Shown: in pieces, positions 2,433-21,158 of the stretch | Position numbering within the stretch: position 1 is the first letter of the stretch | Layout: every line of letters begins with the position of its first letter | Assembly: GCA_902621165.1 (NCBI GenBank) | Contig: CACNKX010000001.1 | Coordinates: forward strand, 44,839-108,838 | Length of the DNA stretch: 64,000 nt | Direction: 5' to 3' | DNA from: an uncultured Alphaproteobacteria bacterium | Lineage (GTDB): Bacteria > Pseudomonadota > Alphaproteobacteria > HIMB59 > GCA-002718135 | The notes under the pieces: model-generated | Databases searched by the model: none | Told to the model about the DNA's origin: nothing | Seen by the model: only the letters and a program-made list of their open reading frames with translations | Position numbers and translations under genes: made by a program

Positions 2433-3251
2433 TTATTCCCATACCGCGTGAGGAGGCATTGACATTAATATAGCATCAACATTCCCACCAGTCTCTAGAC
2501 CAAATTTTGTACCTCTATCATATAATAAGTTAAATTCAGCATAGCGACTACGCTTAACTAATTGTATCTTTTTTTCCTCTTCATTCCACTCCTCATCCTT
2601 AAGTGCAATTAAAGTATTTTTGATAAACTGATGAAAATAAGTACCTACGCCTTGGACAAATTCAAAATCTTTTCCCCAATCGCCAGTTTGAAGGTAATCA
2701 AAAAATATTCCTCCAACACCTCTTGGTTCGTTTCTATGTTTTAGAAAAAAATAGTCATCACACCATTTTTTAAATTTAGGATAATATGATTTATCATATT
2801 TATTACACAAAACTTCTAAACCACGATGATATTTTTTCTCATCCTCAAATATTACACAAGGTGTAATATCCATGCCTCCACCAAACCATTCCTGAGTGGT
2901 TTTAATAAATCTCGTATTAAAATGCATAGAAGGAATTCTAGGTGAAACAGGATGTAAAACAACACTGATGCCAGTTGCATTATAATTTGGATCTTCTTTA
3001 GCACCCGGAATAGCATCTCTCATATTTTCGTTAAATATCCCAGAGACGGTAGAAATATTTACTCCACCTTTTTCAATAATATTACCCTTAATTTTACTCA
3101 TTTTACCACCACCATCACCTTTGTGATCCCAGTTACTTATTTCAAATTGATTTTCATCAATGTTTTGAATAGTTTCAACTAAGTTATCTCGTAATTTTTC
3201 AAACCATTCTTTTGCAGTATTAAATTTGGGATCAGCAATCATAATGGCCAA
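2433..3251 (-). CDS. hemF: Oxygen-dependent coproporphyrinogen III oxidase
   Basis: Motifs SMHFNTRF, KKWCDDYFFLKHRNEPRGVGGIFFDYL and RYAEFNLLYDRGTKFGLETGGNVDAILMSMPP closely follow HemF. Confidence 0.92.
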   Translation of the reverse strand: MAIMIADPKFNTAKEWFEKLRDNLVETIQNIDENQFEISNWDHKGDGGGKMSKIKGNIIEKGGVNISTVSGIFNENMRDAIPGAKEDPNYNATGISVVLHPVSPRIPSMHFNTRFIKTTQEWFGGGMDITPCVIFEDEKKYHRGLEVLCNKYDKSYYPKFKKWCDDYFFLKHRNEPRGVGGIFFDYLQTGDWGKDFEFVQGVGTYFHQFIKNTLIALKDEEWNEEEKKIQLVKRSRYAEFNLLYDRGTKFGLETGGNVDAILMSMPPHAVWE

Positions 3252-4264
3252 CCTTGAGTATGTTTTTTTATCAGATTTACAAAAACATCTATGTGATCAT
3301 CGTGATCATTCAAGCAAGGTATATAATGATAATTTTCTCCACCTGACTCCATAAAATATTCTTTATTTTCTTCTTCAAGTTCTTCAAGTGTTTCAAGACA
3401 ATCACTGCTGAAACCAGGAGATATTATATGTATATTTTTAATCCCTTGTTTTGGTAATTCTTTCAATGTTTCACTTGTATATGGCTTTAACCATTCCTCT
3501 CTTCCAAATCTACTTTGGAAAGTAGTCATTATCTCATCATCGGATAATCCCATATATTCTTTAACAAGTCTTGTGGTTTTAAGACAAAAGCAATGATAAG
3601 GATCACCATTCGTCAAATACCGTTTTGGTATACCATGATAACTAAAAATAATTTTTTGTGGTTTTGAAGTTTTTTTCCAAAATGACTTTATTGAATTTGA
3701 CAATGCTTCAATATAATTTTTTTCTTCAAAGTACTGATTGATAAAACGCATTTCAGGTATCCAACGCCATTTTTGCAATACATTTGTTACTTCATCAAAT
3801 GTACTACCTGTTGTTGCAGCACAATATTGCGGATACATAGGTAGAACTAATAATCTTCTTACTTGTTTTTTTTGAAGTTTTAACAAAGCATCTGGAATAG
3901 ATGGATTGCCATAACGCATCCCAACTTCAAAAACTATATTTTCATTTTTTGAAGAAAAAGATGATTGGATTTTATTTAATTGTCTGTTTGCGATATCTAA
4001 AAGTGGAGAACCCTTATCAGTCCAAATTTGTTTATATGCTTCTGCTGACTTTGATGGTCTTATTTGTAAAATTACTAACTTCAATATAATTTGCCATAAG
4101 ATTTTAGGTAATTCAATTACTCTAGGGTCTGACAAAAATTGATTAAGATAAACTTTTAGTTCTTTTTTATTTGGAGCATCTGGAGTGCCTAGGTTAGTAA
4201 TTAAAACACCAATTTTTTCTTTACTCCCGTGCTCATAATCTTTTTCACCTATATATTTAACCAT
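3239..4264 (-). CDS. hemH: Ferrochelatase
   Basis: Motifs LLVLPMYPQYCAATTGS, FSYHGIP and a C-terminal HIISPGFSSDCLETLEE. The 341-aa length is typical. Confidence 0.92.
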   Translation of the reverse strand: MVKYIGEKDYEHGSKEKIGVLITNLGTPDAPNKKELKVYLNQFLSDPRVIELPKILWQIILKLVILQIRPSKSAEAYKQIWTDKGSPLLDIANRQLNKIQSSFSSKNENIVFEVGMRYGNPSIPDALLKLQKKQVRRLLVLPMYPQYCAATTGSTFDEVTNVLQKWRWIPEMRFINQYFEEKNYIEALSNSIKSFWKKTSKPQKIIFSYHGIPKRYLTNGDPYHCFCLKTTRLVKEYMGLSDDEIMTTFQSRFGREEWLKPYTSETLKELPKQGIKNIHIISPGFSSDCLETLEELEEENKEYFMESGGENYHYIPCLNDHDDHIDVFVNLIKKHTQGWPL

Positions 4265-4269
4265 ATCTA

Positions 4270-5268
4270 TTAGCTAAATTCTTTTCTAATATTTTCTATA
4301 AATAAATGAACATTTTTTTCTGGAGTATTTTTGTTAATTCCATGTCCAAGGCCACAAATCCAGCCATTAAGATTTTCAATTGATTTCATTTTTTCAATAA
4401 AATCTTTTAAATCACTAAGAAATATATCTGTTTCGCTTAACATTAATTGTTCATTGAAATTTCCCTGAATAAATCCATGTTTTTGATTTTCAAACATAGA
4501 TATTAGATCTATTGTGTGATCATAGCCAAAACCAGCAAAGGGAAAACTGATAATAGAATTTAGATCTGTTGAACTTTTACCTCTTGAATAAAAGCCAACT
4601 TTATTTGGAAAAGAAATTGCAATCTCTTCCAAAAATTTGGAATAAATTTCATGAAAATTTATTTTATCTAAATCATACAAGGAACTATCAAAAATCATGA
4701 CAAGTTCAACACCTGCATCTAATTGTAATTGAATATTTTTCTTTAGAAGGGGTAAGAGAATTTTTGAAATAAATTCTAAATTCATTTTAGTGTCGATTAA
4801 ATCAGAGTTATTATTTCCAAATGCATATTTTGATAATGTCCAAGGTCCGCCAACAAATCCAATTAAACTTTTATTATTTGGCAATTTCTCTTTTGTTATT
4901 TTTATAGCTTCAAATTGAAATTGCATATGCTCAATGCCGCGATCAATATTACTATAATCATTAATGTTTTCTGAATTTATATAAGTATTAAATTTAGGTC
5001 CTGGGTCAAACTTTAATTCTAAACCAAGTCCTTCTAAGATGAATAAAATATCGCTGAATAAAATTGCAATATCGTAATCAAACTCTTGTATTGGACCAAA
5101 AGCAACTTCTGCGGCTAGATCCGGAGTTTTACATAGTTCTTCAAAAGTATATTTTTCTTTGAGCTTGCGATAATGCGAATGGTACCTTCCAGCCTGTCTC
5201 ATAAACCAAATGGGTGGTGTTTTTTGAATATTTCTTTTGAGGGCATTTTCGAATAAAATATTTGTCAT
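4270..5268 (-). CDS. hemE: Uroporphyrinogen decarboxylase
   Basis: PPIWFMRQAGRY motif near the N-terminus. I prefer the ATG at 5268 (MTNILFENALKR...), which matches HemE N-termini and sits 2 nt after the hemC/D stop. The track ORF extends to 5298. Confidence 0.88.
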   Translation of the reverse strand: MTNILFENALKRNIQKTPPIWFMRQAGRYHSHYRKLKEKYTFEELCKTPDLAAEVAFGPIQEFDYDIAILFSDILFILEGLGLELKFDPGPKFNTYINSENINDYSNIDRGIEHMQFQFEAIKITKEKLPNNKSLIGFVGGPWTLSKYAFGNNNSDLIDTKMNLEFISKILLPLLKKNIQLQLDAGVELVMIFDSSLYDLDKINFHEIYSKFLEEIAISFPNKVGFYSRGKSSTDLNSIISFPFAGFGYDHTIDLISMFENQKHGFIQGNFNEQLMLSETDIFLSDLKDFIEKMKSIENLNGWICGLGHGINKNTPEKNVHLFIENIRKEFS

Positions 5269-5270
5269 TT

Positions 5271-6779
5271 TTAAGCTTTTAGTAATTTTTTCTTCCAACT
5301 ATCATAAGATAGCTCAACAAAAAGATTTTTATCATTACCTAATATTTTACTAATCTCATTGTATGTATTTCCTGGGCCACAAAAATGATATTTTTCTATA
5401 ATTTTAGGATATTTATCAATACTCGCCTTAAAAGCTGAACTGCTCATCCAATAAAAGTACTTTTTCTTTTCTATATCTATTTCAAAATCAATAGACTCCA
5501 ATTGATACGTTTCAATTTTATTTTTTATCGAACTTTCAGGAGATTGAGAATGAGTTAACTTAACCCAAGAATTATTTGTAAGTGAATTAATATCTTTATC
5601 AAAATCCTCACCAAGACCATCTGAAGTTCCATTAACCCAAATACCTCTTTCAGATAAATTTTTCCATGTTCTTAAACCACTAGTCCAAATAACATTATTT
5701 GATTGGATTTTTGACTTATCTGGGATTGAGCTAATTCGTGAAACATAAATACATTTATTTTGTAAATTATTTATATCATCAACATTTTCATTTAATTGTT
5801 TTCTAGAAAATATTTTATAATTTTTTAAATTTTCAGGATAAATTTCATCTGTTGTATTACTAGAAAAACTTATATCTTTTGGATCAATAAAATCCCAGCT
5901 CTCAAAATGATTGCCATTTTCATCTTCACCTCTTTTAGATACAACTAATCCTAATTTATGTGAGATATAAGATACTCCTATTTTTTGGTGACATCCTCCT
6001 CCATAATTTTTTAAAATATTTCTTTCTTGAATAACATTTGAATAATCTTTGGAATAATTAATATCATTTAAAATTTCGTTAAGTTTATTATCTTTAATTC
6101 TTGTTTCAATCGCTAGAGCTCCTTGTCCAGGAGAACAAGGGTTTATAGACAATGGTAAAACAGACCATAGACATTCATTAATATATTTTTTTAGAGTTAT
6201 TTTTAATTCATTAAATTCAGAATAATTATTTAAAAGTAATCTATCAATTGCTGCCTTAGCAACAATAAAACCATCACTATTAGGATCTTCCAAAAATTTT
6301 TTAAATCTTGTGGGTATGTTACCTCTTATATTTTCAAAGCAAACTTCATCAAACTTTTGTGGAAGATAATTTTCAATAAAATTTTCTAAATTATATTGTC
6401 TTCGAGGTGATGAGCAAAGAATAGTAATTTTCTTACTATCTAATGTTATGTTTTTTTTTAAGAATAATATATCTCGTTTATCAGCACGTTTTAATGTAGC
6501 AGCAATTTTAGTTTTCTCTCCAACTTCAATTGGAAGATCTTTCCAAGAATGGACAATTAAATCACATTTATTATTTATTAATTCATCTCTTAAATCATTA
6601 GTAAAAACACCTTCTGTTGGCATTGCAGAAAGAGGTGTTTTTAAATCTTTATCTCCTGAAGTACTTCTTGTTAAAAATTCTATTTCTACAAAAGGATATT
6701 TTGATTGCAAATAATCGGAAAATTCACGTGCTTGAATTATTGCCAAGTCACTTTTTCTAGATAAAATTCTTATTTTCAT
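5271..6779 (-). CDS. hemC: Porphobilinogen deaminase with a C-terminal uroporphyrinogen-III-synthase-like extension (putative HemC-HemD fusion)
   Basis: The N-terminal ~310 aa are HemC: RKSDLAIIQA, TSGDK, IVHSWKDLP, and the cofactor Cys in NYGGGCHQKIGV. The extra ~190 aa contain HEM4-like strings IYVSR..., SGLRTWKNLSERGIWV and YWMSSSAFKA...HFCGPGNTYNEISKILG. At 502 aa the protein is about 190 aa longer than a stand-alone HemC. Confidence 0.75.
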   Translation of the reverse strand: MKIRILSRKSDLAIIQAREFSDYLQSKYPFVEIEFLTRSTSGDKDLKTPLSAMPTEGVFTNDLRDELINNKCDLIVHSWKDLPIEVGEKTKIAATLKRADKRDILFLKKNITLDSKKITILCSSPRRQYNLENFIENYLPQKFDEVCFENIRGNIPTRFKKFLEDPNSDGFIVAKAAIDRLLLNNYSEFNELKITLKKYINECLWSVLPLSINPCSPGQGALAIETRIKDNKLNEILNDINYSKDYSNVIQERNILKNYGGGCHQKIGVSYISHKLGLVVSKRGEDENGNHFESWDFIDPKDISFSSNTTDEIYPENLKNYKIFSRKQLNENVDDINNLQNKCIYVSRISSIPDKSKIQSNNVIWTSGLRTWKNLSERGIWVNGTSDGLGEDFDKDINSLTNNSWVKLTHSQSPESSIKNKIETYQLESIDFEIDIEKKKYFYWMSSSAFKASIDKYPKIIEKYHFCGPGNTYNEISKILGNDKNLFVELSYDSWKKKLLKA

Positions 6780-6821
6780 TACTTATATTTCTATAAATAA
6801 CACTATATTGTAAAATTAGTA
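6780..6821. promoter_or_regulatory. Divergent promoter spacer between hemC/D and the cytochrome b561 gene (inferred)
   Basis: 42-nt AT-rich spacer between divergent genes. No specific motif recognised. Confidence 0.3.
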
Positions 6822-7385
6822 ATGGTTGAATTTAAAGGTACAAAATCTTCTTGGGGCTTGGTTGCAAAACTTTTTCATTGGTCATTGGCACTTCTTCTTT
6901 TTTGGCAAGTTGCAACAGGGATTAGCCTTCATAATATGGAATTTTCTCCACTTAAAATGGGTTTTATTATTACTCATAAATTTTTTGGCACCTTAGTCTT
7001 TAGTTTAGTCGTGCTTAGATTAATGTGGAAATACATATTTAATACTCATCCTAAATATGAAAATATTCCTTTATTTCATAAATTGGTTTCAAATTTAGTC
7101 CATTTTGTACTTTATGTTTTAGTTATTCTTATTCCTGTTCAAGGTACCTTTATGACATGGCTTGGAGGAGAAGATGTTCATCTCTTGGGATTAATTAAAA
7201 TACCACCTTTAATCGAAGAGAATTTTTTTTTATACCCTCAAGCTTTAGCTATACACTACTACTCAGCAATTATGTTAACAGCTCTTTTTTCACTTCATAT
7301 AACAGCAGCGTTGTATCATCGATTTATAATTAAAGATAAATATGGTGTCTGGAGGAGAATGTCTTTTAGTAGAAATAAGGTGTGA
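6822..7385 (+). CDS. Cytochrome b561 family membrane protein (CybB-like)
   Basis: Four predicted TM helices with His residues spaced as in the Ni_hydr_CYTB/cyt b561 family (LFHWSLALLLF, THKFFGTL, HFVLYVLV, HITAALYHRF). Confidence 0.75.
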   Translation: MVEFKGTKSSWGLVAKLFHWSLALLLFWQVATGISLHNMEFSPLKMGFIITHKFFGTLVFSLVVLRLMWKYIFNTHPKYENIPLFHKLVSNLVHFVLYVLVILIPVQGTFMTWLGGEDVHLLGLIKIPPLIEENFFLYPQALAIHYYSAIMLTALFSLHITAALYHRFIIKDKYGVWRRMSFSRNKV

Positions 7386-7440
7386 CAATTCATTCAATTA
7401 AACACTTACAATTAAAGATTGGGTAAGATATCTAACATTT

Positions 7441-8676
7441 ATGCAATACAAAAATTTCTTTAAATCTGAATTAAAAAATTTAAAAGATCAGGGTCTTTAT
7501 AGGGACTTTAGAAACATAGATAGACCTATAAAAAGTTTTCCAAATGCAGATGAAAGTTTCAAAAATAAAGAGAGAGAAGTTGAGGTTTGGTGTTCTAATG
7601 ACTATCTGAACATGAGTCAGCACCCAGAAGTCGTAAATGAAATTGTAAAAACACTACTTGAATATGGATCTGGCTCAGGTGGAACAAGAAATATTTCTGG
7701 TACATCAACCTATCATACTAAACTTGAAAAAAAACTGGCAAATGTTCATAATAAAGAGGCGGCATTAGTTTTTGCTTCTGCTTATACAGCAAACCAATCT
7801 ACTTTATGGACTTTAGGAAAAAAAATTAAAGATATTGAAATATTTTCTGATGAATTAAATCACGCATCTTTAATACAAGGTATTAAGAATAGTGGAGCTA
7901 AGTGTAATATATTTAAACATAATGACATTGATCATTTAGAAAAGTTACTAAAAGAGTCAAATGTAGATAATCCTAAGTTAATCGTTTTTGAAAGTTTATA
8001 CTCTATGGAAGGTATAAGATCGCCTATAGTTAAAATTGTAGAGTTAGCAAAAAAATATAACTGTATGACATATTTGGATGAAGTTCATTCAGTTGGACTT
8101 TACGGTGAAGAAGGTAAAGGTATTGCAGTAGAAATGGGAGTTGAAGATAAAATAGATATTATTAATGGAACTTTAGCAAAAGCATATGGTCAAATGGGAG
8201 GGTATATTGCAGCTAGTTCAGAAATAATTGATTACATTAGAAGTTTTGCTCCAGGTTTTATTTTTACAACTTCAATCTGTCCATCAATTGCTGCAGGAGC
8301 AGCTAAAGCAATAGATATTGTTTCTCTGGCAGAACAACTAAGAATAAGAATAAAAGAAAATGCAGCTTTAATAAGAGAAAATTTAGATTCCTTAGCAATC
8401 CCTTATTTGGATACAAATTCTCATATCGTAGCAGTATTAATTAATGATCCTTTTTTATGCAAAAAAGTGTCTAAAGATTTAATTGATGATCATGGAATTT
8501 ATGCACAACCAATTTTTTACCCGACTGTACCAAAAGGTTTAGAAAGACTAAGAATAACTGTTACCCCAAAACATAGAAAAGAGCATATCGAAAAAATGAT
8601 TAAGGCTCTTGATACAGTTTGGTCTAAAAATAATTTACCAAGAAAAAATATTAATAAAGTTACAGCAAATATTTAA
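7441..8676 (+). CDS. hemA: 5-aminolevulinate synthase (C4/Shemin pathway)
   Basis: [29 protein letters not shown] and the PLP-lysine block GTLAKAYG. 411 aa. Confidence 0.92.
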
Positions 8677-9749: not shown

Positions 9750-10253
9750 TTATTGGCAACTGCCTATAGAACCAAGAGCACATTTTTTACCGTCTATCCA
9801 TATAGCATTTGACAAATTTGCTTCATCAAACATTGCTCCAGAAATATTAGCACCAAGTAGATTTGCCTCATATAGATTTGCACCTTTAAAAGTCGCTCCA
9901 AAGAGATTAGATCCCTCAAAGTTTACTTTTGCAAGGTTTGCATTATCAAAGTTAGCATTATTACAATTAGCTCCCTGTAAATTTGAAGCATATAAATTTG
10001 AATTACTGAAATTTGAGAAGATAAAATTACCAATAGATAAATTTGAATTATTAAGTTGAGATTTTTCAAAATTAGATAAAGATAAATTTACTCCTGACAT
10101 TTGAGAATTTGCCAAACCAGTACCAGAAAGATCGAGATTTTCTACAAAATTACAATTAGTCCAATCCACATCATTTGCTGGTTGATCACTGCATGCAGCA
10201 AATACAGAATATGAACTAAAGAAACTTAAAAAAAATAAAATTAAAAATCTCAT
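9750..10253 (-). CDS. Secreted (possibly lipoprotein) pentapeptide-repeat protein
   Basis: Signal peptide MRFLILFFLSFFSSYSVFAAC, then uninterrupted A(N/D)LxX-type pentapeptides (NLQGANCNNANFDNANLAKVNFEGSNLFGATFKGANLYEANLLGANISGAMFDEANLSNA). Lies 42 nt downstream of the MotB-like gene on the same strand. Confidence 0.8.
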   Translation of the reverse strand: MRFLILFFLSFFSSYSVFAACSDQPANDVDWTNCNFVENLDLSGTGLANSQMSGVNLSLSNFEKSQLNNSNLSIGNFIFSNFSNSNLYASNLQGANCNNANFDNANLAKVNFEGSNLFGATFKGANLYEANLLGANISGAMFDEANLSNAIWIDGKKCALGSIGSCQ

Positions 10254-10294
10254 ACTTAATTTTTATGATCAGTTTATGTTAAATTTAAGGCAAA

Positions 10295-12061
10295 TTAGCG
10301 TGAAGTGAGTTTTAATTCAATCCTTCTATTCTGTTGTAGATCACTCTCAGTTTCTCCATTACTGATAGGATAAAACTCTCCATATCCTGCAGATGCTAAT
10401 CTATTTGGTGGAAAACCAAGATCAAGAAGAAGTTTTAAAACTGTATTAGCTCTAGCTGAAGATAATTCCCAGTTAGAAGGATATCTAATTGTTTGTATGG
10501 GTTTTTTGTCAGTGTGTCCTTCTACCATGATAATCCAATCAATATCTGAAGGAATATCATTAGTAGTCTCTTTTAAAGTAAGGCCAATTTCACTTAACTT
10601 TTCTTTGCCAGATAGTTGTAAATCTGCTGAAGCAGAATCAAATAATAGCTCTGATTCAAAAATAAATCTATCTCCTACAATTTTAATGTCTTTTCTATCA
10701 CCTAAAATAGATTGTAATTTTCCGAAAAACTCAGATCTATATTTTTGGAGCTCAAATACTTTCGATGTAAGGGCTTTATTTAACTTTTCACCTAGCACCT
10801 CTATTTCTAAATCTTTAATCAAAGCCTGGCTTTCACTAGCTTCTAGAGCACTATTAAGCAAAGCAATTTCTTTTTGCAGAGTGTCAATTTGATTAGAAAG
10901 AATTTCTACCTGTTCTAATGTTTTTGAAGCTTGTATTTCCATATTTTTAATTTCTTCAAGTGATGTTTCTTTTTGAGTTTGATTTTCTTGCTCTAATAAT
11001 GCAATTTGATTTTGAAGTAGCTCAAGTTTATCAAGTTGTTGTTTTTGTTTATCTTCTGACAAAGAAAGTACATTATTCAGTTCAGATATTTTTCCTCGTA
11101 AATTAAAAATAGTGCTATCTTTCTGAATTAAATCTTTATTTAATCTTGCTAATTCTTCATTTTTAAACCTAATTGCATCAAGTTGTTCATTAAGTGATGC
11201 ATCTTTTAAGCCAAGACTATCATTAATTTCTAAAAGATCATTCATTAGTTCTTGATATTGGGATATTTGACTTTGTAATTCTTCATCTCTCAATGATAGT
11301 TCAGTGTTTGTCTTTTCTAATTCATCATTTAAACTTAGAAGCTTTTCATTTTTATTTTTAATTGCAAGCAATTGCTCTTCAATTCCTCCTTCCTCTAAAC
11401 CCAGACTTTCGTTAATGGCCATTAAATTTTCATTCTTCTCATTTAATTCTGCTATTGTAAATTTGAGAGATTCTTCACTTTCAAGTAATTTAAAATTAGC
11501 ATTATCTAATTCTTGATTAAGTATTTTTAGTTGATCAATTCTTGTTGCAAGTGCTTTATTAATTCGTTCTCCAAGTCCCTCGGTTTCAAGTATAGTAATT
11601 TCTTGTCCTTCATATGTTTCTAATGCATTTGCAACTATTCTCAGTTCTTTTAAAAGACTACTAATTTGCTCGGATAATGCTATTATATTTTGTTCCTGAA
11701 CAAATATTTCTGATCGTTTTTTTGCAACATCAGTTTGTAATTGCTCACTTAATAATTGCTCACTTTGTAAATTTAATTCTGTATCTTCAAGTTTTTTCTC
11801 AGTTTCAGAAAGAGTTGAAAGAGCTTCTTCTTTATCTTTAGTTTCAATAACAAGTATTTTAGATAATTCATTTATTTGTGTTCTTAAATCTTGAAGCGCC
11901 TTATCTCGGCCGGATATAGCATCACTCAGATATATTTGCGAAACAGTAAAAACCATTAGCACAAATATGATGACTATTAAAAGAGTAGCTAGAACATCGA
12001 CAAAACCGGGCCAAATATTTGTTGTATCAGCAAGTCTATTTCTTAAAGACCTAGTAGACAT
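10295..12061 (-). CDS. MotB/OmpA-family peptidoglycan-binding protein with a ~400-aa coiled-coil spacer
   Basis: MotB-type N-terminus WPGFVDVLATLLIVIIFVLMVF (TM helix with Asp). Residues ~45-445 are E/K/L/Q-rich heptad-like sequence. The C-terminal OmpA-like domain reads FDSASADL...MVEGHTDKKPI...NWELSSARANTV...NRRIELKL. Confidence 0.8.
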   Translation of the reverse strand: MSTRSLRNRLADTTNIWPGFVDVLATLLIVIIFVLMVFTVSQIYLSDAISGRDKALQDLRTQINELSKILVIETKDKEEALSTLSETEKKLEDTELNLQSEQLLSEQLQTDVAKKRSEIFVQEQNIIALSEQISSLLKELRIVANALETYEGQEITILETEGLGERINKALATRIDQLKILNQELDNANFKLLESEESLKFTIAELNEKNENLMAINESLGLEEGGIEEQLLAIKNKNEKLLSLNDELEKTNTELSLRDEELQSQISQYQELMNDLLEINDSLGLKDASLNEQLDAIRFKNEELARLNKDLIQKDSTIFNLRGKISELNNVLSLSEDKQKQQLDKLELLQNQIALLEQENQTQKETSLEEIKNMEIQASKTLEQVEILSNQIDTLQKEIALLNSALEASESQALIKDLEIEVLGEKLNKALTSKVFELQKYRSEFFGKLQSILGDRKDIKIVGDRFIFESELLFDSASADLQLSGKEKLSEIGLTLKETTNDIPSDIDWIIMVEGHTDKKPIQTIRYPSNWELSSARANTVLKLLLDLGFPPNRLASAGYGEFYPISNGETESDLQQNRRIELKLTSR

Positions 12062-12063
12062 TA

Positions 12064-13089
12064 TTATTTTTTAATTTTCTTTAGTTCTTTTTCAATTTTC
12101 TGAAAATATTCTTTAACTTTTTTTGCTTCTAATATTCCATTTTTGCTCAAAGCTTCTGTAAGGTTCATTAGTGAAGATTGTGTGTTTAATTGTGAAGATA
12201 AGAAATTTGATAATTGCTTATCAAGATTTGAAGAGTTGGAATTGATTTTGTTAAGTATTTCATTAAACTTCTCTAAATTGTTTGAAATTTTAGTTTGATT
12301 GTCAGATGATTTTTTAAAAGCATTTAGGAGGTTTTCTAAGTTGTCATAGATTTTTTGAATTGCTTCTCCTGTAGGCTTATCTTCTACTTTAGAAAAATCT
12401 GGAGAAGAATTGTTATTAAGGATTTTTTCAAAGTATTGACTAAATTTATTTTGAGCTTGTCCAAGATTTAAATCAAGTAATCCTAATATTAAAGAGCCAG
12501 CTAAACCTAATAAAGAACTGCTAAATGCAATACTCATTCCTTCAAGTGGAGCATTTAATCCATCTTTAAGAGAATTAAAAAAACCTGCAACATTTGTATC
12601 ATCTATACCTAGGCCGCTAATAACATTGCCAACTGATCCAATGGTTTTTAGAAGTCCCCAGAAAGTTCCAAGGAGTCCTAAAAAGACTAGCAAACCTACC
12701 AGGTAACGAGAAGTTTCTCTTATGCTTATCAAAGTCATATCAGAATTCTCTATCAATCTATTTATTGATGAACTTTTAAAAACAAATTTTCCGTCAAGAT
12801 TTTTTAATTCAAGAGAAATATTTTTGTCTTGCCCTCTTAAAGTTGAGAATGCTTCTATAGAATTTGTAATATTAAAGTTCGAGAAAGATATATATTTGTA
12901 ATTTAAGTTAATGAGATGAAAAAAATTAAATACAATTCCAGTTAACAGGGCTAATAAAATTATAATGTTAATAAAAATATTTGATAAAAAAGCATTTTGT
13001 AAAACTGGGTATAATAAAACAACAATAACAAAGACAGCGACTAAGAAAATTGATGCTCTAATTATATAATTATTTAGGGATAGCGCCAT
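12064..13089 (-). CDS. MotA/TolQ/ExbB-family proton-channel protein with an N/S/K-rich C-terminal tail
   Basis: 4-TM MotA-like topology. Channel signature LVFLGLLGTFWGLLKTIG ... PLEGMSIAFSSSLLGLAGSLILGLLD. About 135-aa low-complexity helical tail. The stop lies 2 nt before the MotB-like start. Confidence 0.75.
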   Translation of the reverse strand: MALSLNNYIIRASIFLVAVFVIVVLLYPVLQNAFLSNIFINIIILLALLTGIVFNFFHLINLNYKYISFSNFNITNSIEAFSTLRGQDKNISLELKNLDGKFVFKSSSINRLIENSDMTLISIRETSRYLVGLLVFLGLLGTFWGLLKTIGSVGNVISGLGIDDTNVAGFFNSLKDGLNAPLEGMSIAFSSSLLGLAGSLILGLLDLNLGQAQNKFSQYFEKILNNNSSPDFSKVEDKPTGEAIQKIYDNLENLLNAFKKSSDNQTKISNNLEKFNEILNKINSNSSNLDKQLSNFLSSQLNTQSSLMNLTEALSKNGILEAKKVKEYFQKIEKELKKIKK

Positions 13090-13139: not shown

Positions 13140-14324
13140 TTAGTTGTAGATATAATTTCTTGTGAGAGGCAAATTGTTAATATTTTTTGCAATTTGTATT
13201 TGGAAAACAACATTACCCATATTTACAAAGGAATACTTACTTGCTAATAGATAAAACTCCCACATTCTAAAAAAACGCTGATCAAACATATTTATAATTT
13301 TATCTTTATTTTCAATAACATTTTGATACCATTTGGAAAGTGTGTGAGCGTAATGTAGTCTTAATACTTCAACATCTGTTACATTTATATTAAGTTTTTG
13401 TGTTGCATTCATTACTTCAGATAATGATGGAATATAACCACCAGGAAAAATGTATTTTCTTATCCAAGGACTTGTAGCAGTTGGTTTACCCCTTTGACCA
13501 ATTGTATGCAAAAGAAAAACACCATTTTCTTTTAGAATATCATTAGCTTTACTTAAATAAGTTTTAAAATATTTAACACCAACATGCTCAAACATACCAA
13601 CTGATACAATGCGATCATATTTTTCGGTCTCATTTCTATAATCTTGTAGTGCAAAAGAAACTTTATCAGCCAAACCTTCTTTTTGTGCTCGCTCAGATGC
13701 AGTTTTAAATTGATTTTCTGAAAGTGTAATTCCTTTAACTTTGGCACCAGTAGATTTAGCTATTTCAATTGCCATTCCTCCCCAACCACACCCAATATCA
13801 AGAACATCCATATTTTCTGTAATTTGAAGTTTTTTAATTATATGTTGTTTTTTATCTTTCTGTGCTTGATCTAAACTCATATTGGGATTGTGAAAATATG
13901 CGCAAGAATATTGCATATCCTGATCAAGAAATAATTTATATAAATCCTCATTTATATCGTAGTGGTGTGCTACATTTTTTTTTGAATTTACAAGCTGATT
14001 AATCTGCTGAAATGGCATGAAAATAGAAGATAAATATTCATAAAATTTATAAAACTTATTGTTAGAAATAAAATCATCGTAACAATTAGTTATTAAATTA
14101 AGAAAGTCTTCTATAGTGCCTTTTTCTACAACTAACTCCTCATTCATATATGCTTCACCTATATGCAGATTAGGGTTTAAGAATAGTTTTCTTTCAATAG
14201 ATTTGTTTTTCAGTCTTATACAAACGTGAGGGTTTGAATTTCCAAATTTATGGGTCTTGCCATTAGAATCTATGATTTCTAATGTTCCATCAAAGTTAAG
14301 TTTTTTCAGTACACTGAATAACAT
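13140..14324 (-). CDS. cfa: Cyclopropane-fatty-acyl-phospholipid synthase family SAM-dependent methyltransferase
   Basis: HYDINEDLYKLFLDQDMQYSCAYF, the SAM motif VLDIGCGWGGMAIEIA, and SVGMFEHVG. 394 aa. Confidence 0.85.
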   Translation of the reverse strand: MLFSVLKKLNFDGTLEIIDSNGKTHKFGNSNPHVCIRLKNKSIERKLFLNPNLHIGEAYMNEELVVEKGTIEDFLNLITNCYDDFISNNKFYKFYEYLSSIFMPFQQINQLVNSKKNVAHHYDINEDLYKLFLDQDMQYSCAYFHNPNMSLDQAQKDKKQHIIKKLQITENMDVLDIGCGWGGMAIEIAKSTGAKVKGITLSENQFKTASERAQKEGLADKVSFALQDYRNETEKYDRIVSVGMFEHVGVKYFKTYLSKANDILKENGVFLLHTIGQRGKPTATSPWIRKYIFPGGYIPSLSEVMNATQKLNINVTDVEVLRLHYAHTLSKWYQNVIENKDKIINMFDQRFFRMWEFYLLASKYSFVNMGNVVFQIQIAKNINNLPLTRNYIYN

Positions 14325-14410: not shown

Positions 14411-14635
14411 TTAAGCAGCAATGCGACGATTTTTTTGAGCTTCTTTTTCTTTTTTAAGCTCTTTTTCGTCAATGTATGCAACATCACAGTGACTCTGACA
14501 ATAAGGCTTCCCAGCAACGGTATCGGCTTCACAAAAATGAAAATCTTTCTCTTGTGGATCTCCAATTGGCCATTGGCAACTTGAGAAACTGTGCATCACA
14601 CTGTTTTGTTTAAAATAGTTTTTTAATATAGACAT
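14411..14635 (-). CDS. Small GcrA-C-terminal-module protein (no GcrA N-terminal DNA-binding domain)
   Basis: CQWPIGDPQEKDFHFCEADTVAGKPYCQSHCDVAY matches the conserved C-terminal CxWPxGDP...FC...PYC..H...AY block of alphaproteobacterial GcrA. I chose the ATG at 14635 (MSILKNY...). The track ORF runs to 14692 and an ATG at 14596 is also possible. Confidence 0.6.
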   Translation of the reverse strand: MSILKNYFKQNSVMHSFSSCQWPIGDPQEKDFHFCEADTVAGKPYCQSHCDVAYIDEKELKKEKEAQKNRRIAA

Positions 14636-14789
14636 AATAATTTTATTAATTTCGAGGTAGTTTATATTTATGAAAAAACCAGTATTCAACATTAAATATA
14701 AAAAAGTTGTTAATTATCAATATGTTAGTATCTTAATCTTTTTGACCTACTATATGTTGATACATTATTTATAAGAAAAACGAATCGGT

Positions 14790-19694: not shown

Positions 19695-21158
19695 TTATAA
19701 ATATTCCTTTCTTGTTATTTTGAAACTGTATGCATGCTCGCATGGTTTATTATCTGGTCTTGTTATATGGAGTCCATCTCTGGTATGTTTCCATTCTACT
19801 TTATCAGTACTTCCTAATAATTCTACACTTTCAATTTCATTATCAAAAAGTTTATATATACTTTCTATCGTAAAATCTTTGCTAGGCCATCCTAATGCAG
19901 TTGCATACAAAAAATTATCTTTTGTAGTGAACCTAAAATCTTTAGCAGTATAAATTAGTTTTGCTCGATTATCTGAAAAAGGTCCTGCTTCATTCATTTT
20001 AGTTGGGCCTTCTCCATATTGATCCCATGTTTCTGTTTCAAATATTGCTTCTCCATTTACATCAAGCCAATTTCCAATACCTTCTAAAAGATTTTTATCT
20101 TCTTCTGGAATTGTTCCATCAGGTTTTGGCCCAATATTTAAGAGCATGTATCCATTTTTACTAACATTATCTATTAAGTAGTGAACTAAATCTGTCGTAG
20201 TTTTATATTTTGAATTCTTCATATAAGCCCAAGCACTTCCATCGTGGACTGTGGTATCAGTAATCCAATCATAGTGGGTTAATTCTGACTCTCTTCCTAG
20301 TTCAAGATCTAATAATCCAGAACCGGGGGGAAGATCATGCCATTTATAAGATACAACTACTTCATTACCCCACTCAGTTTCTTTATTATAATAATATGAA
20401 AGAAAATCTTTTTTATACTTTTCATGAATAAATCTAATTCCAAAATCAAACCAGATATAATCTGGTTTATAATTATCTACTACTTCTTTTAATCTATTTA
20501 ACCATCTATCATGAAAAGCTTTACTAGGCTTGTCTTGATGTTCATTTTTTCTACCCCAATGATCCGGATATACAGCCTGATTTCCTATTAAATTTAAATT
20601 GTGAAGTTCACCATATAAACTTTCATATTCCTTTTTTGATGTATCAAAATCATTATTCCAGTGTGGAAAAAAAAACCAGTTTTCAGCATGATGCATTGCT
20701 ACCATATATTTCATCCCTTTATTTCTAATTGCTTTTGCAAGTTCTCCAACAATATCTCTTTTTGGCCCCATCTTGGATGCACACCATTCGGTATCAGAAC
20801 AATTCCACATTGGAAAACCATCATGATGCTCTGCTACTGGTCCAGCAAACTTTGCTCCAGATCGATAATACAAATCTGCCCACTCTTCTGCATTAAATTT
20901 TTCAGCAGTAAACATTGGTATAAAATCTTTATATCCAAATTTAGATGGATGACCATAATGTTTACAATGATAATCAAACTGAGGACTAGGTGGTCTATAC
21001 ATCCAATAAGGATACCAAGTTACATTAGGTCCAGCGGCTGGAACGGAATAGATTCCCCAATGAGCATAAATACCAAACTTTGCTTTTTTAAACCAATTTG
21101 GTGTTTGATGTTGTTTTATTGATGACCAAGTTGACTCAAAATAGTTTTGTTTCATCAC
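19695..21158 (-). CDS. Alpha-L-fucosidase, GH29, no signal peptide
   Basis: NWFKKAKFGIYAHWGIYSVPA, GAKFAGPVAEHHDGFPMW, PDYIWFDF and YMLLNIGPKPDGTIPEE are GH29 hallmarks. The N-terminus MMKQNYFESTW has no hydrophobic leader. Confidence 0.85.
   Translation of the reverse strand: MMKQNYFESTWSSIKQHQTPNWFKKAKFGIYAHWGIYSVPAAGPNVTWYPYWMYRPPSPQFDYHCKHYGHPSKFGYKDFIPMFTAEKFNAEEWADLYYRSGAKFAGPVAEHHDGFPMWNCSDTEWCASKMGPKRDIVGELAKAIRNKGMKYMVAMHHAENWFFFPHWNNDFDTSKKEYESLYGELHNLNLIGNQAVYPDHWGRKNEHQDKPSKAFHDRWLNRLKEVVDNYKPDYIWFDFGIRFIHEKYKKDFLSYYYNKETEWGNEVVVSYKWHDLPPGSGLLDLELGRESELTHYDWITDTTVHDGSAWAYMKNSKYKTTTDLVHYLIDNVSKNGYMLLNIGPKPDGTIPEEDKNLLEGIGNWLDVNGEAIFETETWDQYGEGPTKMNEAGPFSDNRAKLIYTAKDFRFTTKDNFLYATALGWPSKDFTIESIYKLFDNEIESVELLGSTDKVEWKHTRDGLHITRPDNKPCEHAYSFKITRKEYL

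What the first reader, a model, noticed from the sequence alone, without database searches (positions are those of the whole stretch)
9750..13089. Orphan MotA/MotB-like stator module with a ~400-residue periplasmic coiled coil, followed by a secreted pentapeptide-repeat protein
What the sequence shows:
- Two genes separated by 2 nt look like a proton-channel stator pair.
- The first is a 341-aa, 4-TM protein with the MotA/TolQ/ExbB channel signature (GLLGTFWGLL ... EGMSIAFSSSLLGLAGSLILGLL) and a ~135-aa N/S/K-rich helical tail.
- The second is a 588-aa protein with a MotB-type plug/TM segment carrying the conserved Asp (WPGFVDVLATLL) and a C-terminal OmpA/MotB peptidoglycan-binding domain.
- About 400 residues of uninterrupted heptad-like sequence separate the TM segment from the OmpA domain.
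- A signal-peptide-bearing pentapeptide-repeat protein follows 42 nt downstream on the same strand.
- The window contains no flagellar, Tol-Pal (tolA/tolB/pal), TonB or Zorya effector (zorC/zorD) genes.

Interpretation:
- MotB topology places the rod in the periplasm.
- At the standard alpha-helical rise of about 0.15 nm per residue, the rod would be about 60 nm long. That is longer than a Gram-negative periplasm, so it must fold back or lie along the sacculus.
- The long rod is on the periplasmic B subunit, whereas in Zorya it is on the cytoplasmic A subunit.
- In an apparently streamlined, probably non-flagellated genome, this looks like an uncharacterised member of the 5:2 ion-driven motor class, coupling proton flux to some envelope process.
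Basis: partly seen in the sequence, partly recalled or inferred. Interest (0 to 1): 0.72.

Follow-up and report, generated by a model that had tools for sequence, protein, structure and literature searches.

The report
Conserved alphaproteobacterial ZorAB-like envelope motor
Two adjacent genes in this marine alphaproteobacterium encode what looks like an ion-driven membrane motor anchored to the cell wall by an unusually long coiled-coil stalk; it belongs to a gene pair conserved across Alphaproteobacteria for which I found no published function.

Summary
A (341 aa) has four hydrophobic TM segments. Its predicted fold matches only A subunits of 5:2 ion-driven motors, ZorA first, then ExbB and TolQ. 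B (588 aa) has a MotB-type TM helix with the Asp, about 410 helical residues, and a stator-type peptidoglycan-binding domain. C is a secreted pentapeptide-repeat protein.

The pair is not an orphan. A belongs to a family with 937 representatives (50% identity clusters, E ≤ 1e-10). B scores above the curated cutoff of NCBIfam NF006543 (PRK09039, "peptidoglycan-binding protein"). A and B are adjacent in about 70 of 80 related loci, mostly Alphaproteobacteria. Typical genomes place them in a housekeeping locus: efp, suhB, a small OmpA-domain gene, A, B.

Two features are lineage-specific. B's stalk is about twice the family norm and grew by internal duplications and heptad-phase insertions; it is modelled as five helical segments, not one rod. 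The pentapeptide gene follows B only in SAR11-like loci.

Best reading: an uncharacterised housekeeping ZorAB-like motor anchored to peptidoglycan, probably with an envelope role. Canonical MotAB, TolQR, ExbBD and Zorya memberships all fail tested criteria. Nine literature searches found no characterised member.

The parts
12064..13089 (-). Gene A: 341-aa A subunit (ZorA/ExbB-like) of a 5:2-type ion-driven motor
   Evidence: ORF. Four TM segments. AF2 mean pLDDT 74.6. Foldseek against PDB returns only ZorA, ExbB, TolQ and PomA/MotA chains. PADLOC ZorA models match at E about 1e-12. All 35 diverse family members hit ZorA models.
12472..13089 (-). A residues 1-206: membrane core. TM1/TM2 hairpin, cytoplasmic insert with a beta-hairpin at 95-104, TM3 (GLLGTFWGLLKT, with T142 and T149) and TM4 (MSIAFSSSLLGLAGS, with S190-192)
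   Evidence: Invariant columns include G138, L139, G141, T142, F143, G145, L146, T149, P181, G184, M185, F189, S192, G195 and L196. The beta-hairpin is in the AF2 model. The positions parallel the ZorA selectivity filter, Thr147 and Ser184 (PMC11946911). I inferred this correspondence from residue numbering and motif context, not from a residue-level alignment.
12067..12471 (-). A residues 207-341: cytoplasmic helical tail (136 aa). It is shorter than the family median and lacks the family's C-terminal ELRxEIRLLARTI segment
   Evidence: Tail conservation is seen in alignment A1. Tail-length distribution: family median 173 aa, window 136 aa. AF2 models helices 241-264, 266-316 and 320-340 at moderate confidence.
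10295..12061 (-). Gene B: 588-aa B subunit, a member of NCBIfam NF006543 (PRK09039 'peptidoglycan-binding protein') with an expanded stalk
   Evidence: NF006543 scores 361.3 bits against a cutoff of 305, matched in two stretches (N-terminus and residues 298-588), which implies an insertion of about 250 aa relative to the 350-position model. A typical member, L031 B (353 aa), scores 433.7 bits over its full length.
11942..12013 (-). B residues 17-40: TM helix with the WPGFVD motif. The Asp22 codon is at 11996-11998
   Evidence: Hydropathy. The strict search pattern, which requires F, Y, L or M before V-D, matched 187 of 200 family B proteins. Eight of the 12 non-matching sequences that were listed carry WPGWVD; the other four are a split gene and mis-called ORFs. 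One non-matching sequence was not examined. W17, P18, G19, V21 and D22 are invariant in alignment A3.
10703..11941 (-). B residues 41-453: periplasmic coiled-coil stalk in five helical segments, built by internal duplication
   Evidence: AF2 helices and breaks. No Pro; Gly hinges at 152-164, 221-226, 284, 323 and 424. Self-alignment: residues 180-250 match 240-310, and 50-200 match 313-460, with scores of 100-139 against a null of 31 +/- 8. The relative in L008 differs by insertions of 21 and 28 aa, that is 3 and 4 heptads.
10298..10684 (-). B residues 460-588: stator-type OmpA-like peptidoglycan-binding domain
   Evidence: Pfam OmpA E = 3e-15. PDB sequence hits to MotS, MotB and PomB. Foldseek top hits are MotS 9ljl, H. 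pylori MotB 3s03 and PomB 3wpw at E about 1e-10 and RMSD about 2 Å. N530, W531, L533, S534, R537 and A538 are invariant.
9750..10253 (-). Gene C: secreted (possibly lipoprotein) pentapeptide-repeat protein. It is a lineage-specific downstream neighbour and not part of the conserved module
   Evidence: Pfam Pentapeptide E = 4e-21. N-terminal hydrophobic segment ending in FAAC. It follows B in all 7 SAR11-like loci with sequence there, and in none of 76 other loci.

Best explanation
A and B are the SAR11-lineage orthologs of a class-wide alphaproteobacterial gene pair. The pair most likely assembles into a 5:2-type ion-driven rotary complex.

Proposed mechanism (inferred):
- Five A subunits (ZorA/ExbB-like fold) surround two B transmembrane helices.
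- Protonation and deprotonation of B Asp22, reached through a polar path formed by A Thr142/Thr149 and Ser190-192, drives rotation of A relative to B. H+ and Na+ are not distinguished.
- B is held still because its C-terminal MotB-type domain binds peptidoglycan. So the A ring and its conserved cytoplasmic helical tail would be the moving output, as in Zorya.

Biological role (weakest step). The pair sits in a core housekeeping locus, is retained in streamlined genomes, and in most relatives is preceded by a secreted OmpA-domain protein. This suggests a constitutive envelope-maintenance or envelope-sensing role, not motility, nutrient import or phage defence.

Shown here: family membership, fold class, conserved Asp and polar residues, stator-type peptidoglycan-binding domain, synteny, and lineage-specific stalk expansion. 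Inferred: 5:2 stoichiometry, ion flow, rotation, which subunit moves, and the biological output.

The pentapeptide-repeat gene is a SAR11-specific neighbour that may be co-transcribed. It is not part of the conserved system.
For: - Fold. The AF2 model of A matches only 5:2-motor A subunits in PDB. ZorA entries 8qyk, 8vvn and 8qyd rank first, then ExbB 5sv0, TolQ and PomA.
- Sequence. All 35 diverse family members hit PADLOC ZorA models, best E = 3e-16. Pfam MotA_ExbB is hit by 28 of 35, weakly.
- Invariant polar and Gly residues in TM3 and TM4 of A. They parallel ZorA Thr147 and Ser184 facing ZorB Asp26 (PMC11946911).
- The WPG[FYW]VD motif with the Asp is near-universal in B. The strict pattern matched 187 of 200, and at least 8 of the 13 non-matching sequences carry WPGWVD.
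- B's C-terminal domain is closest to MotS, MotB and PomB peptidoglycan-binding domains.
- A and B are adjacent on the same strand in about 70 of 80 loci, mostly with gaps of 0-25 nt. The gap in the window is 2 nt.
- B passes the curated NF006543 cutoff.
- Housekeeping context with independent gene calls: efp, suhB, small OmpA-domain protein, A, B, an ABC exporter on the opposite strand, rpmE.
- Identical synteny in 8 SAR11-like loci, and thousands of close marine homologs.
- Indels that preserve the heptad phase support a real coiled coil.
Against: - No multimer model or experiment was available, so stoichiometry and rotation are inferred by homology alone.
- A's sequence similarity to any solved motor is weak. 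Foldseek E-values are only 5e-3 to 1e-1. Sequence and profile searches of PDB gave no motor hit.
- Pfam MotA_ExbB is below its gathering score for the window protein: 14.8 bits against 22.9.
- No cytoplasmic partner for A's tail is evident in the neighbourhood.
- Stalk length varies about two-fold across the family. That is awkward for a simple fixed-distance ruler.
- The SAR11 version lacks both the upstream OmpA-domain gene and the last conserved segment of A's tail, so the lineage may use the system differently.
- The envelope role rests only on domain content and context.
Confidence: 0.6

Rival explanations
1. Tol-like force transducer. Here the B stalk is the working output, not a static anchor. 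B would combine a TolR/MotB-like axle, a TolA-like long helical domain and a Pal-like peptidoglycan-binding head in one polypeptide. Ion flow would turn or retract the stalk. That would remodel or tension links between inner membrane, peptidoglycan and outer membrane, possibly together with the secreted OmpA-domain protein encoded upstream in most relatives.
For: - The long periplasmic helical region plus OmpA domain on B.
- A conserved secreted OmpA-domain gene immediately upstream, found in 20 of the related loci by clustering and seen again in two independently gene-called genomes (three loci).
- Housekeeping context.
- ExbB and TolQ are among the closest folds to A.
Against: - A dimeric B fixed to peptidoglycan by a stator-type domain should be the stationary part, as in MotB and ZorB (PMC11946911).
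- B lacks the ExbD/TolR-type periplasmic domain.
- A carries a conserved cytoplasmic tail, which suggests a cytoplasmic output.
- The SAR11 locus lacks the upstream OmpA-domain gene.
Confidence: 0.22
2. A passive structural tether or spacer. B would simply link the inner membrane to peptidoglycan through a coiled coil, and A would be a membrane chaperone or scaffold. The channel residues would be conserved for assembly, not for ion flow.
For: - The stalk length is evolutionarily plastic, as in structural spacers.
- No partner or effector genes are conserved apart from an OmpA-domain protein.
Against: - The TM Asp of B and the Thr/Ser positions of A are invariant or nearly so across hundreds of diverged sequences.
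- That pattern is what is expected of an active ion pathway. A charged residue in a TM helix that serves only for assembly would be unusual.
Confidence: 0.1
3. A Zorya-type (or Zorya-derived) anti-phage module in which ZorAB-like proteins sense envelope perturbation by phage.
For: - ZorA is the best match to A by HMM and by fold.
- PADLOC ZorB models hit B.
- A has a cytoplasmic tail at the ZorA tail position.
Against: - No ZorC, D, E, F or G-like gene is present or conserved near the pair.
- The locus is a fixed housekeeping position across the class and shows no sign of being a variable defence island.
- NCBIfam ZorA subfamily scores are far below cutoff: 12.8 bits against 100.
- A's tail is 136-173 aa against about 500 aa in ZorA, where tail length matters for function.
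- B has a long stalk, whereas the ZorB domain is fused to the TM helix without a linker.
Confidence: 0.05
4. A degenerate or repurposed flagellar stator (MotAB), as many automatic annotations state.
For: - Source annotations read 'flagellar motor protein MotA' and 'chemotaxis protein MotB'.
- B's peptidoglycan-binding domain is closest to MotS/MotB.
Against: - NCBIfam MotA equivalog TIGR03818 scores 14.3 bits against a cutoff of 303.8. The MotB, MotS and MotD equivalogs are all far below cutoff and match only the OmpA domain.
- Flagellar stators rank below ZorA, ExbB and TolQ in the fold search.
- The pair is linked to efp and suhB, not to flagellar genes.
- There are no flagellar genes in the window.
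Confidence: 0.02

Closest known systems
Zorya ZorA-ZorB complex (type I EcZorAB, PDB 8qyd; PMC11946911)
   Same: - ZorA is the best fold and HMM match to A.
- Both have TM helices carrying a Thr (TM3 here, TM2 in ZorA) and a Ser (TM4 here, TM3 in ZorA), facing an Asp in the B subunit's TM helix.
- Both have a beta-hairpin in the membrane-proximal cytoplasmic domain.
- Both have a helical cytoplasmic tail starting just after the last TM helix.
- In both, the B subunit ends in a peptidoglycan-binding OmpA-like domain.
   Different: - There are no ZorC/D or other effector genes here.
- The locus is a core housekeeping position, not a defence island.
- A's tail is 136-173 aa against about 500 aa.
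- A has four hydrophobic segments against three TM helices in ZorA.
- B has a coiled-coil stalk of 190-410 aa, whereas the ZorB domain is fused to the TM helix without a linker.
- NCBIfam ZorA models score far below cutoff.
Flagellar stators MotAB, PomAB and MotPS
   Same: - Four-TM A subunit.
- B with an N-terminal TM Asp and a C-terminal peptidoglycan-binding domain that is the closest structural match to B's domain.
- Adjacent, closely spaced genes.
   Different: - No match to the MotA equivalog.
- A's cytoplasmic insert is short (about 70 aa) and ZorA-like, so it does not resemble a FliG-binding torque interface.
- A has a long C-terminal tail.
- B's linker is a coiled coil of hundreds of residues, not a plug plus a short linker.
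- No flagellar context.
TolQR-TolA-Pal and ExbBD-TonB
   Same: - Same 5:2 superfamily; ExbB and TolQ are among the top fold matches.
- Housekeeping envelope systems.
- A long periplasmic helical element (TolA domain II) and an OmpA-like peptidoglycan binder (Pal) both exist in the Tol system.
   Different: - Here the helical stalk and the OmpA domain are fused to the B subunit itself.
- There is no ExbD/TolR-type periplasmic domain.
- No TolA, TolB, Pal or TonB gene lies in the locus.
- No NCBIfam TolQ or ExbB model is hit.
NCBIfam NF006543 / PRK09039 'peptidoglycan-binding protein'
   Same: B scores above the curated cutoff. Its N-terminal TM motif, the juxtamembrane SGRD motif, the pre-OmpA motif (LGxxLNxAL...YRSEFF) and the OmpA domain are all shared with the family.
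   Different: - The window's B carries about 250 extra coiled-coil residues, made by internal duplication.
- The family name describes only a domain; it carries no established function.
- The partner A family has no curated model.
Salmonella SPI4 SiiAB (a MotAB-like pair attached to a type 1 secretion system; bioRxiv 10.1101/641415)
   Same: It is another non-flagellar pair described as MotAB-like. The title and abstract returned name SiiA as an auxiliary protein of the SPI4-encoded type 1 secretion system. That SiiA is MotB-like and binds peptidoglycan is my recollection; I did not read the paper.
   Different: - SiiAB is encoded within the SPI4 secretion operon, according to that abstract.
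- No secretion genes are linked here.
- I did not compare the sequences.

Membership tests
5:2 ion-driven motor superfamily (MotA/ExbB/TolQ/ZorA-type A subunit with MotB/ExbD/TolR/ZorB-type B subunit) | The A subunit has the superfamily fold | tested here: met
   The listed top 50 Foldseek PDB matches are all ZorA, ExbB, TolQ, PomA or MotA chains, with probability up to 1.00, although E-values are only 5e-3 and weaker. PADLOC ZorA models match at E about 1e-12. Pfam MotA_ExbB is below its gathering score for the window protein but is hit by 28 of 35 family members.
5:2 ion-driven motor superfamily | A conserved acidic residue (Asp) in the single N-terminal TM helix of the B subunit | tested here: met
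   Asp22 lies in WPGFVD. It is invariant in alignment A3. The strict motif pattern matched 187 of 200 family proteins, and at least 8 of the rest carry WPGWVD.
5:2 ion-driven motor superfamily | A and B genes are adjacent and co-oriented | tested here: met
   2-nt gap in the window. A is followed by B in about 70 of 80 related loci.
5:2 ion-driven motor superfamily | A5B2 stoichiometry and ion-driven rotation | not testable with these tools
   Only monomer structure prediction was available, and no experiment.
Flagellar stator MotAB/PomAB | Matches the MotA and MotB equivalog models | tested here: not met
   TIGR03818 MotA scores 14.3 bits against a cutoff of 303.8. The MotB, MotS and MotD equivalogs score 35-101 bits against cutoffs of 264-301, over the OmpA domain only.
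Flagellar stator MotAB/PomAB | Genomic or functional link to flagellar genes | tested here: not met
   No flagellar genes were found among the window ORFs that I scanned, nor in the conserved neighbourhoods. I could not inspect the whole genome.
TolQR / ExbBD | Matches TolQ or ExbB models, and B carries an ExbD/TolR-type periplasmic domain | tested here: not met
   No TolQ or ExbB NCBIfam model appears among the hits at E <= 1. B carries an OmpA domain and no ExbD-type domain.
TolQR / ExbBD | Linked tolA/tolB/pal or tonB genes | tested here: not met
   None in the window or in the conserved neighbourhoods.
Zorya (ZorAB plus effectors) | ZorA with a long cytoplasmic tail (hundreds of residues; about 500 in EcZorA) | tested here: not met
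   The tail is 136 aa in the window and 173 aa at the family median. EcZorA's tail spans residues 223-729 (PMC11946911).
Zorya (ZorAB plus effectors) | Adjacent effector genes (ZorC/D, ZorE or ZorF/G) | tested here: not met
   The neighbours are a methyltransferase, the pentapeptide protein and an EamA transporter in SAR11-like loci, and efp, suhB, an OmpA-domain protein and an ABC exporter elsewhere. PADLOC gives no hit for C.
Zorya (ZorAB plus effectors) | Reaches the curated ZorA family score | tested here: not met
   NCBIfam antiphage_ZorA_2 scores 12.8 bits against a cutoff of 100. The PADLOC hits (about 43 bits) mostly cover only TM3-TM4.
NCBIfam NF006543 (PRK09039.1-2, peptidoglycan-binding protein) | Whole-protein score at or above the curated cutoff | tested here: met
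   361.3 bits against a cutoff of 305, in two stretches because of the stalk insertion.
Pentapeptide-repeat proteins (gene C) | Pfam PF00805 above its gathering score | tested here: met
   74.6 bits against 20.2. No NCBIfam named subfamily (Qnr, MfpA, HetL, PipB) reaches its cutoff.

The most novel reading that the evidence does not exclude
The A/B pair defines a further functional class of 5:2 ion-driven motors, alongside flagellar stators, Ton/Tol, gliding/T9SS motors and Zorya. It would be a constitutive, vertically inherited, ZorAB-like machine found across Alphaproteobacteria, including the ocean's most abundant streamlined lineages. It would couple ion flow to envelope homeostasis or sensing through a peptidoglycan-anchored coiled-coil stalk of adjustable length and a short rotating cytoplasmic tail. 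It could also be a housekeeping relative from which the Zorya defence motors were recruited.
Probability: 0.35. Interest if true: 0.8.

Novelty: new variant of a known kind. Interest (0 to 1): 0.6.

Why it matters
Only a handful of functional classes of 5:2 ion-driven motors are known. Each one revealed a new way that bacteria carry energy from the inner membrane to another compartment.

This pair is a distinct architecture: a ZorA-like ring with a short tail, plus a MotB-like axle with a coiled-coil stalk of 190 to more than 400 residues. It is conserved in a housekeeping locus across a major bacterial class. Automatic pipelines call it a flagellar stator or give it only generic names such as peptidoglycan-binding protein. 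I found no experimental study of it.

Its retention, and the doubling of its stalk, in genome-streamlined marine lineages suggests it does something important for the envelope. Tractable relatives such as Azospirillum and Acetobacter carry the same pair, so the question can be tested directly. If the family is related to Zorya, it would also bear on how that defence system arose.

Tried and rejected
1. The first protein search with the window's A returned only marine homologs at 80% identity or more, and gave no distant relatives.
2. Cluster look-ups of ten distant representatives gave no informative names.
3. Sequence search of A against PDB found nothing relevant. A profile search with alignment A1 was swamped by coiled-coil and apolipoprotein-like hits to the tail, with no motor among the listed best 60. 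Only the fold comparison recovered the relationship.
4. Nine literature searches found no paper characterising this pair. They covered PRK09039, stator-like and MotAB-like terms, alphaproteobacterial model organisms, SAR11 and Zorya. Targeted reading found nothing either. The two papers that mention PRK09039 are about a phage genome and blue-light genetics, and I did not open them.
5. Promoter scan: promoter-like sites are at chance level in this AT-rich DNA (22 found against 22.0 expected). No terminator was found, so the transcription unit could not be defined.
6. tRNA and Rfam scans of the window found nothing.
7. I rejected a Zorya defence system, a flagellar stator and TolQR/ExbBD on tested criteria (see the membership tests).
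8. I rejected the pentapeptide gene as a conserved third component.
9. I could not obtain coordinates of the B model, so whether AF2 folds the five helices back on each other is unknown. With pTM 0.37, their relative arrangement would be unreliable anyway.
10. My crude ORF-based gene calling produced spurious antisense ORFs in high-GC loci (clusters 3 and 4). I cross-checked the neighbourhood with independent gene calls.

Full report
**1. Checking the observation**

- **Gene A** (13089..12064) encodes 341 aa.
  - Hydropathy gives four TM segments: 12-30, 38-56, 129-147 and 187-205.
  - A 136-aa hydrophilic tail follows TM4.
  - Both quoted motifs, GLLGTFWGLL and EGMSIAFSSSLLGLAGSLILGLL, are present.
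- **Gene B** (12061..10295) starts 2 nt after A's stop codon and encodes 588 aa.
  - It has one N-terminal TM segment carrying WPGFVD, with the Asp at residue 22.
  - It has a C-terminal OmpA domain (Pfam PF00691, residues 473-579, E = 3e-15).
- **Gene C** (10253..9750) lies 41 nt downstream of B.
  - It encodes 167 aa with a signal-like N-terminus ending in FAAC, a possible lipobox.
  - It carries pentapeptide repeats (PF00805, E = 4e-21).

The window averages about 29-30% G+C. Its closest named records are single-cell genomes labelled "uncultured Alphaproteobacteria", with 99% identity for A to isolate AG-453-C10.

No terminator-like site separates the three genes. Promoter-like matches are at chance level in this AT-rich DNA.

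I found no flagellar, Tol-Pal, TonB or Zorya effector gene in syntenic loci that have precomputed Pfam hits. None appeared among 30 further window ORFs, which encode sugar catabolism and ABC transport. The window contains no paralog of A and no second OmpA-domain protein.

One correction is needed: the helical region of B is not uninterrupted (section 4).

**2. What A is**

Curated libraries barely recognise A:

- Pfam MotA_ExbB scores 14.8 bits, below the gathering score of 22.9.
- The NCBIfam MotA equivalog scores 14.3 bits against a cutoff of 303.8.
- No TolQ or ExbB model is hit.
- Sequence and profile searches of PDB find no motor protein.

Other evidence places A clearly:

- PADLOC's ZorA models match at E about 1e-12.
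- All 35 diverse family members hit ZorA models, best E = 3e-16. Only 28 of 35 hit Pfam MotA_ExbB, and weakly.
- An AF2 model of A (mean pLDDT 74.6) matches only A subunits of 5:2 ion-driven motors in PDB. ZorA entries 8qyk, 8vvn and 8qyd rank first, followed by ExbB 5sv0, TolQ and PomA/MotA. E-values are modest (5e-3 and weaker), but probabilities reach 1.00 and the hit list is uniform.

The model has a beta-hairpin at residues 95-104 in the cytoplasmic insert. Helices follow TM4.

Invariant residues across the family cluster in two places:

- TM3: G138, L139, G141, T142, F143, G145, L146, T149.
- TM4: P181, G184, M185, F189, S192, G195, L196; S190 and S191 are nearly invariant.

The solved EcZorAB structure offers close parallels (PMC11946911):

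- Thr147 and Ser184 of ZorA form the selectivity filter facing ZorB Asp26.
- The membrane-proximal cytoplasmic domain contains a beta-hairpin.
- The tail begins at residue 223.

The correspondence to A's T142, S190-192, hairpin and tail is close. I inferred it from positions and motifs, not from a residue-level structural alignment.

**3. What B is**

B scores 361.3 bits on NCBIfam NF006543 (PRK09039.1-2, "peptidoglycan-binding protein"), above the curated cutoff of 305. The match comes in two stretches, the N-terminus and residues 298-588. That implies an insertion of about 250 aa relative to the 350-position model. A typical alphaproteobacterial B (L031, 353 aa) matches the same model end to end at 433.7 bits.

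- **TM motif.** My strict pattern for WPG[FY]VD matched 187 of 200 family proteins. Of the 12 non-matching sequences that were listed, eight carry WPGWVD; the other four are a split gene and mis-called ORFs. Asp22 is invariant in alignment A3.
- **C-terminal domain.** By sequence and by fold it is closest to the stator peptidoglycan-binding domains of MotS, MotB and PomB, at Foldseek E about 1e-10 and RMSD about 2 Å. The usual peptidoglycan-binding positions N530, W531, L533, S534, R537 and A538 are invariant.
- **Topology.** A positively charged N-terminus, a single TM segment and a peptidoglycan-binding C-terminus place everything after residue 40 in the periplasm. This is an inference from standard MotB-type topology.

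**4. The stalk**

AF2 models B (mean pLDDT 75.3, pTM 0.37) with helices at 21-152, 160-219, 228-283, 288-331 and 336-453, followed by the OmpA domain at 460-586. The breaks coincide with Gly-containing sites at 152-164, 221-226, 284 and 323. There is no Pro between residues 45 and 465.

Self-alignment shows how the stalk was built:

- A unit of about 65 aa is repeated in tandem (residues 180-250 and 240-310).
- Residues 50-200 are paralogous to residues 313-460.
- These alignments score 100-139 against a shuffled null of 31 +/- 8.

A related lineage's B (L008, 637 aa, 72% identical) differs by two insertions of exactly 21 and 28 residues, that is 3 and 4 heptads. They include a perfect EQTNVEL×3 repeat. 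Indels that keep the heptad phase argue for a real coiled coil that changes length in heptad units.

Across the family, the distance from the TM motif to the C-terminus has a median of 348 aa and ranges from 312 to 621. The SAR11-type proteins, at about 572, sit at the extreme.

Even the typical stalk of about 190 aa would exceed the roughly 9 nm between inner membrane and peptidoglycan quoted for E. coli (PMC11946911). The geometry is genuinely unresolved: tilted, folded, or lying along the wall. From memory, cryo-ET of Pelagibacter reported an unusually large periplasm. I could not retrieve that paper, so it is only a lead.

**5. Distribution and context**

An exhaustive search of 1.84 billion cluster representatives found these numbers of relatives of A:

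| E-value threshold | Relatives of A |
|---|---|
| 1e-3 | 2,086 |
| 1e-10 | 937 |
| 1e-30 | 172 |

They are typically 350-400 aa and align over the full length, cytoplasmic tail included.

The best 80 loci are mostly Alphaproteobacteria: Devosia, Azospirillum, Nitrospirillum, Acetobacter, Asaia, Kordiimonas, Rhodospirillales, Sphingomonadales and Holosporales. A few are beta-, gamma- and deltaproteobacterial MAGs.

Synteny findings:

- In about 70 of these 80 loci, A is followed on the same strand by an OmpA-ending B, usually after 0-25 nt.
- The pentapeptide gene follows B in all 7 SAR11-like loci with sequence there, and in none of the other 76.
- Outside SAR11 there is a different conserved neighbour: a secreted protein of 198-433 aa with a C-terminal OmpA domain, immediately upstream of A.
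- Independent gene calls on large contigs of 0.6-3.9 Mb give the order tkt-gap-(pgk)-fba-thiE ... efp - suhB - OmpA-domain protein - A - B - ABC exporter (opposite strand) - rpmE.

That is a core housekeeping neighbourhood and shows no sign of being a defence island. Within the SAR11-like group, all eight loci share identical flanks, and the first search returned thousands of close marine homologs. I did not fetch genomes of Caulobacter, Rhodobacter, Sinorhizobium or Brucella, so their orthologs remain to be located.

Source databases name A "flagellar motor protein MotA", "MotA/TolQ/ExbB proton channel family protein", "biopolymer transport protein ExbB/TolQ" or "hypothetical". They name B "peptidoglycan-binding protein" or "chemotaxis protein MotB".

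**6. How it most likely works**

Shown here:

- The fold class of A.
- The conserved Asp of B and the conserved polar residues of A.
- The stator-type peptidoglycan-binding domain.
- The tight A-B linkage.
- Class-wide conservation in a housekeeping locus.

Inferred by homology with solved 5:2 motors:

- Five A subunits surround two B helices.
- Ion passage via Asp22 drives relative rotation.
- B is fixed to peptidoglycan, so the A ring and its conserved cytoplasmic tail are the moving part, as proposed for Zorya.

I could not assign the ion. TM4 carries a Ser triplet, which leaves both H+ and Na+ open.

The biological output is the weakest step. From context and domain content, I favour a constitutive envelope-maintenance or envelope-sensing role. 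The stalk would set or report the spacing between inner membrane and peptidoglycan.

The main rival is a Tol-like transducer in which the B stalk itself is the output, combining TolR, TolA and Pal functions in one protein. I consider it less likely because a peptidoglycan-bound dimeric axle should be stationary, and because A's tail is conserved.

Three other rivals are disfavoured by tested features:

- a passive tether;
- a Zorya-type defence system;
- a degenerate flagellar stator.

**7. Comparison with known systems, and novelty**

- The pair works most like ZorAB. It fails three tested Zorya criteria: tail length, linked effectors and the curated score.
- It fails the MotAB equivalog tests.
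- It fails the TolQR/ExbBD tests.
- B is a bona fide member of NF006543/PRK09039, a family whose name describes only a domain and which has no established function.
- A has no curated family.

A recent phylogenetic survey of MotAB homologs (PMC12505986) excluded Zorya-type proteins from its trees and does not describe this family. Reviews of 5:2 motors and of the Brucella envelope do not mention it. Nine full-text searches found no study of it. The library lacks most subscription journals, so a published characterisation cannot be excluded.

I therefore class this as a new variant of a known kind: a distinct, uncharacterised architecture within the 5:2 motor superfamily.

**8. Verdict**

- It is right that this is an uncharacterised, non-canonical 5:2-type module with a periplasmic stalk.
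- It is wrong that the pair is an orphan.
- It is wrong to include the pentapeptide gene in the module.
- It is too simple about the single 60-nm rod and about the contrast with Zorya.

What is specific to this lineage is the doubled stalk, a shortened A tail (136 aa against a family median of 173), loss of the upstream OmpA-domain neighbour, and gain of the pentapeptide neighbour.

Interest is moderate to high because the family is so widespread, so poorly annotated and directly testable in tractable relatives.

Noticed in passing
window 17916-63783: A dense island of sugar catabolism and transport genes. It includes KDPG aldolase, two PfkB kinases, a GH29 alpha-L-fucosidase (19695-21158), a fuconate-dehydratase-like MR_MLE enzyme, UxuA, mannitol dehydrogenase, aldose 1-epimerase, two or three ABC systems and a sulfatase (60079-61614). 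From memory, fucosidase plus sulfatase is unusual for canonical SAR11, which suggests a sugar-using SAR11-related lineage such as HIMB59/AEGEAN-169.
   Followed up: partly
L031:5246-5890, L058:4797-5921, L085:6116-6979, L086:6346-6942: In most non-SAR11 relatives, a secreted protein of 198-433 aa with a C-terminal OmpA domain is encoded immediately upstream of A. It is a likely third component of the conserved module. It is absent from that position in the window, where a CMAS-type methyltransferase (13140-14324) lies upstream instead.
   Followed up: partly
L008:7044-8957: The B ortholog of a related marine lineage is 637 aa. Relative to the window's B it has insertions of exactly 21 and 28 residues (3 and 4 heptads), including a perfect EQTNVEL×3 tandem repeat. 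The stalk therefore changes length in heptad units.
   Followed up: yes
window 12067-12471 (A residues 207-341): The window's A tail is 136 aa against a family median of 173. It lacks the family's conserved C-terminal segment (GRxxxxxELRxEIRLLARTI). So in this lineage the cytoplasmic tail shrank while B's periplasmic stalk doubled.
   Followed up: partly
L003:3785-5547: In one metagenomic contig, gene B is split into a 57-aa ORF and a 528-aa ORF. This is either a sequencing or assembly error, or a disrupted allele.
   Followed up: no
window 2433-8676: A heme biosynthesis cluster lies next to the module. By synteny with L001 it comprises coproporphyrinogen oxidase, ferrochelatase, uroporphyrinogen decarboxylase and porphobilinogen deaminase, plus a cytochrome b561-like protein (6822-7385) and an ALA-synthase-like aminotransferase (7441-8676).
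   Followed up: no
window 14411-14692 (-): A small ORF (93 aa as listed; called as 74 aa in syntenic loci) carries a GcrA cell-cycle regulator domain (PF07750). It is much shorter than I recall typical GcrA proteins to be.
   Followed up: no
window 35253-36467 (-): A 404-aa ORF inside the sugar island has no Pfam match at E <= 1e-5.
   Followed up: no
window 9750-10253 (gene C): The pentapeptide-repeat protein has five Cys residues (21, 34, 97, 158, 166) and a possible lipobox (FAAC). It reaches no NCBIfam named subfamily cutoff (Qnr, MfpA, HetL, PipB). It is conserved at this position in all SAR11-like loci with sequence there.
   Followed up: partly
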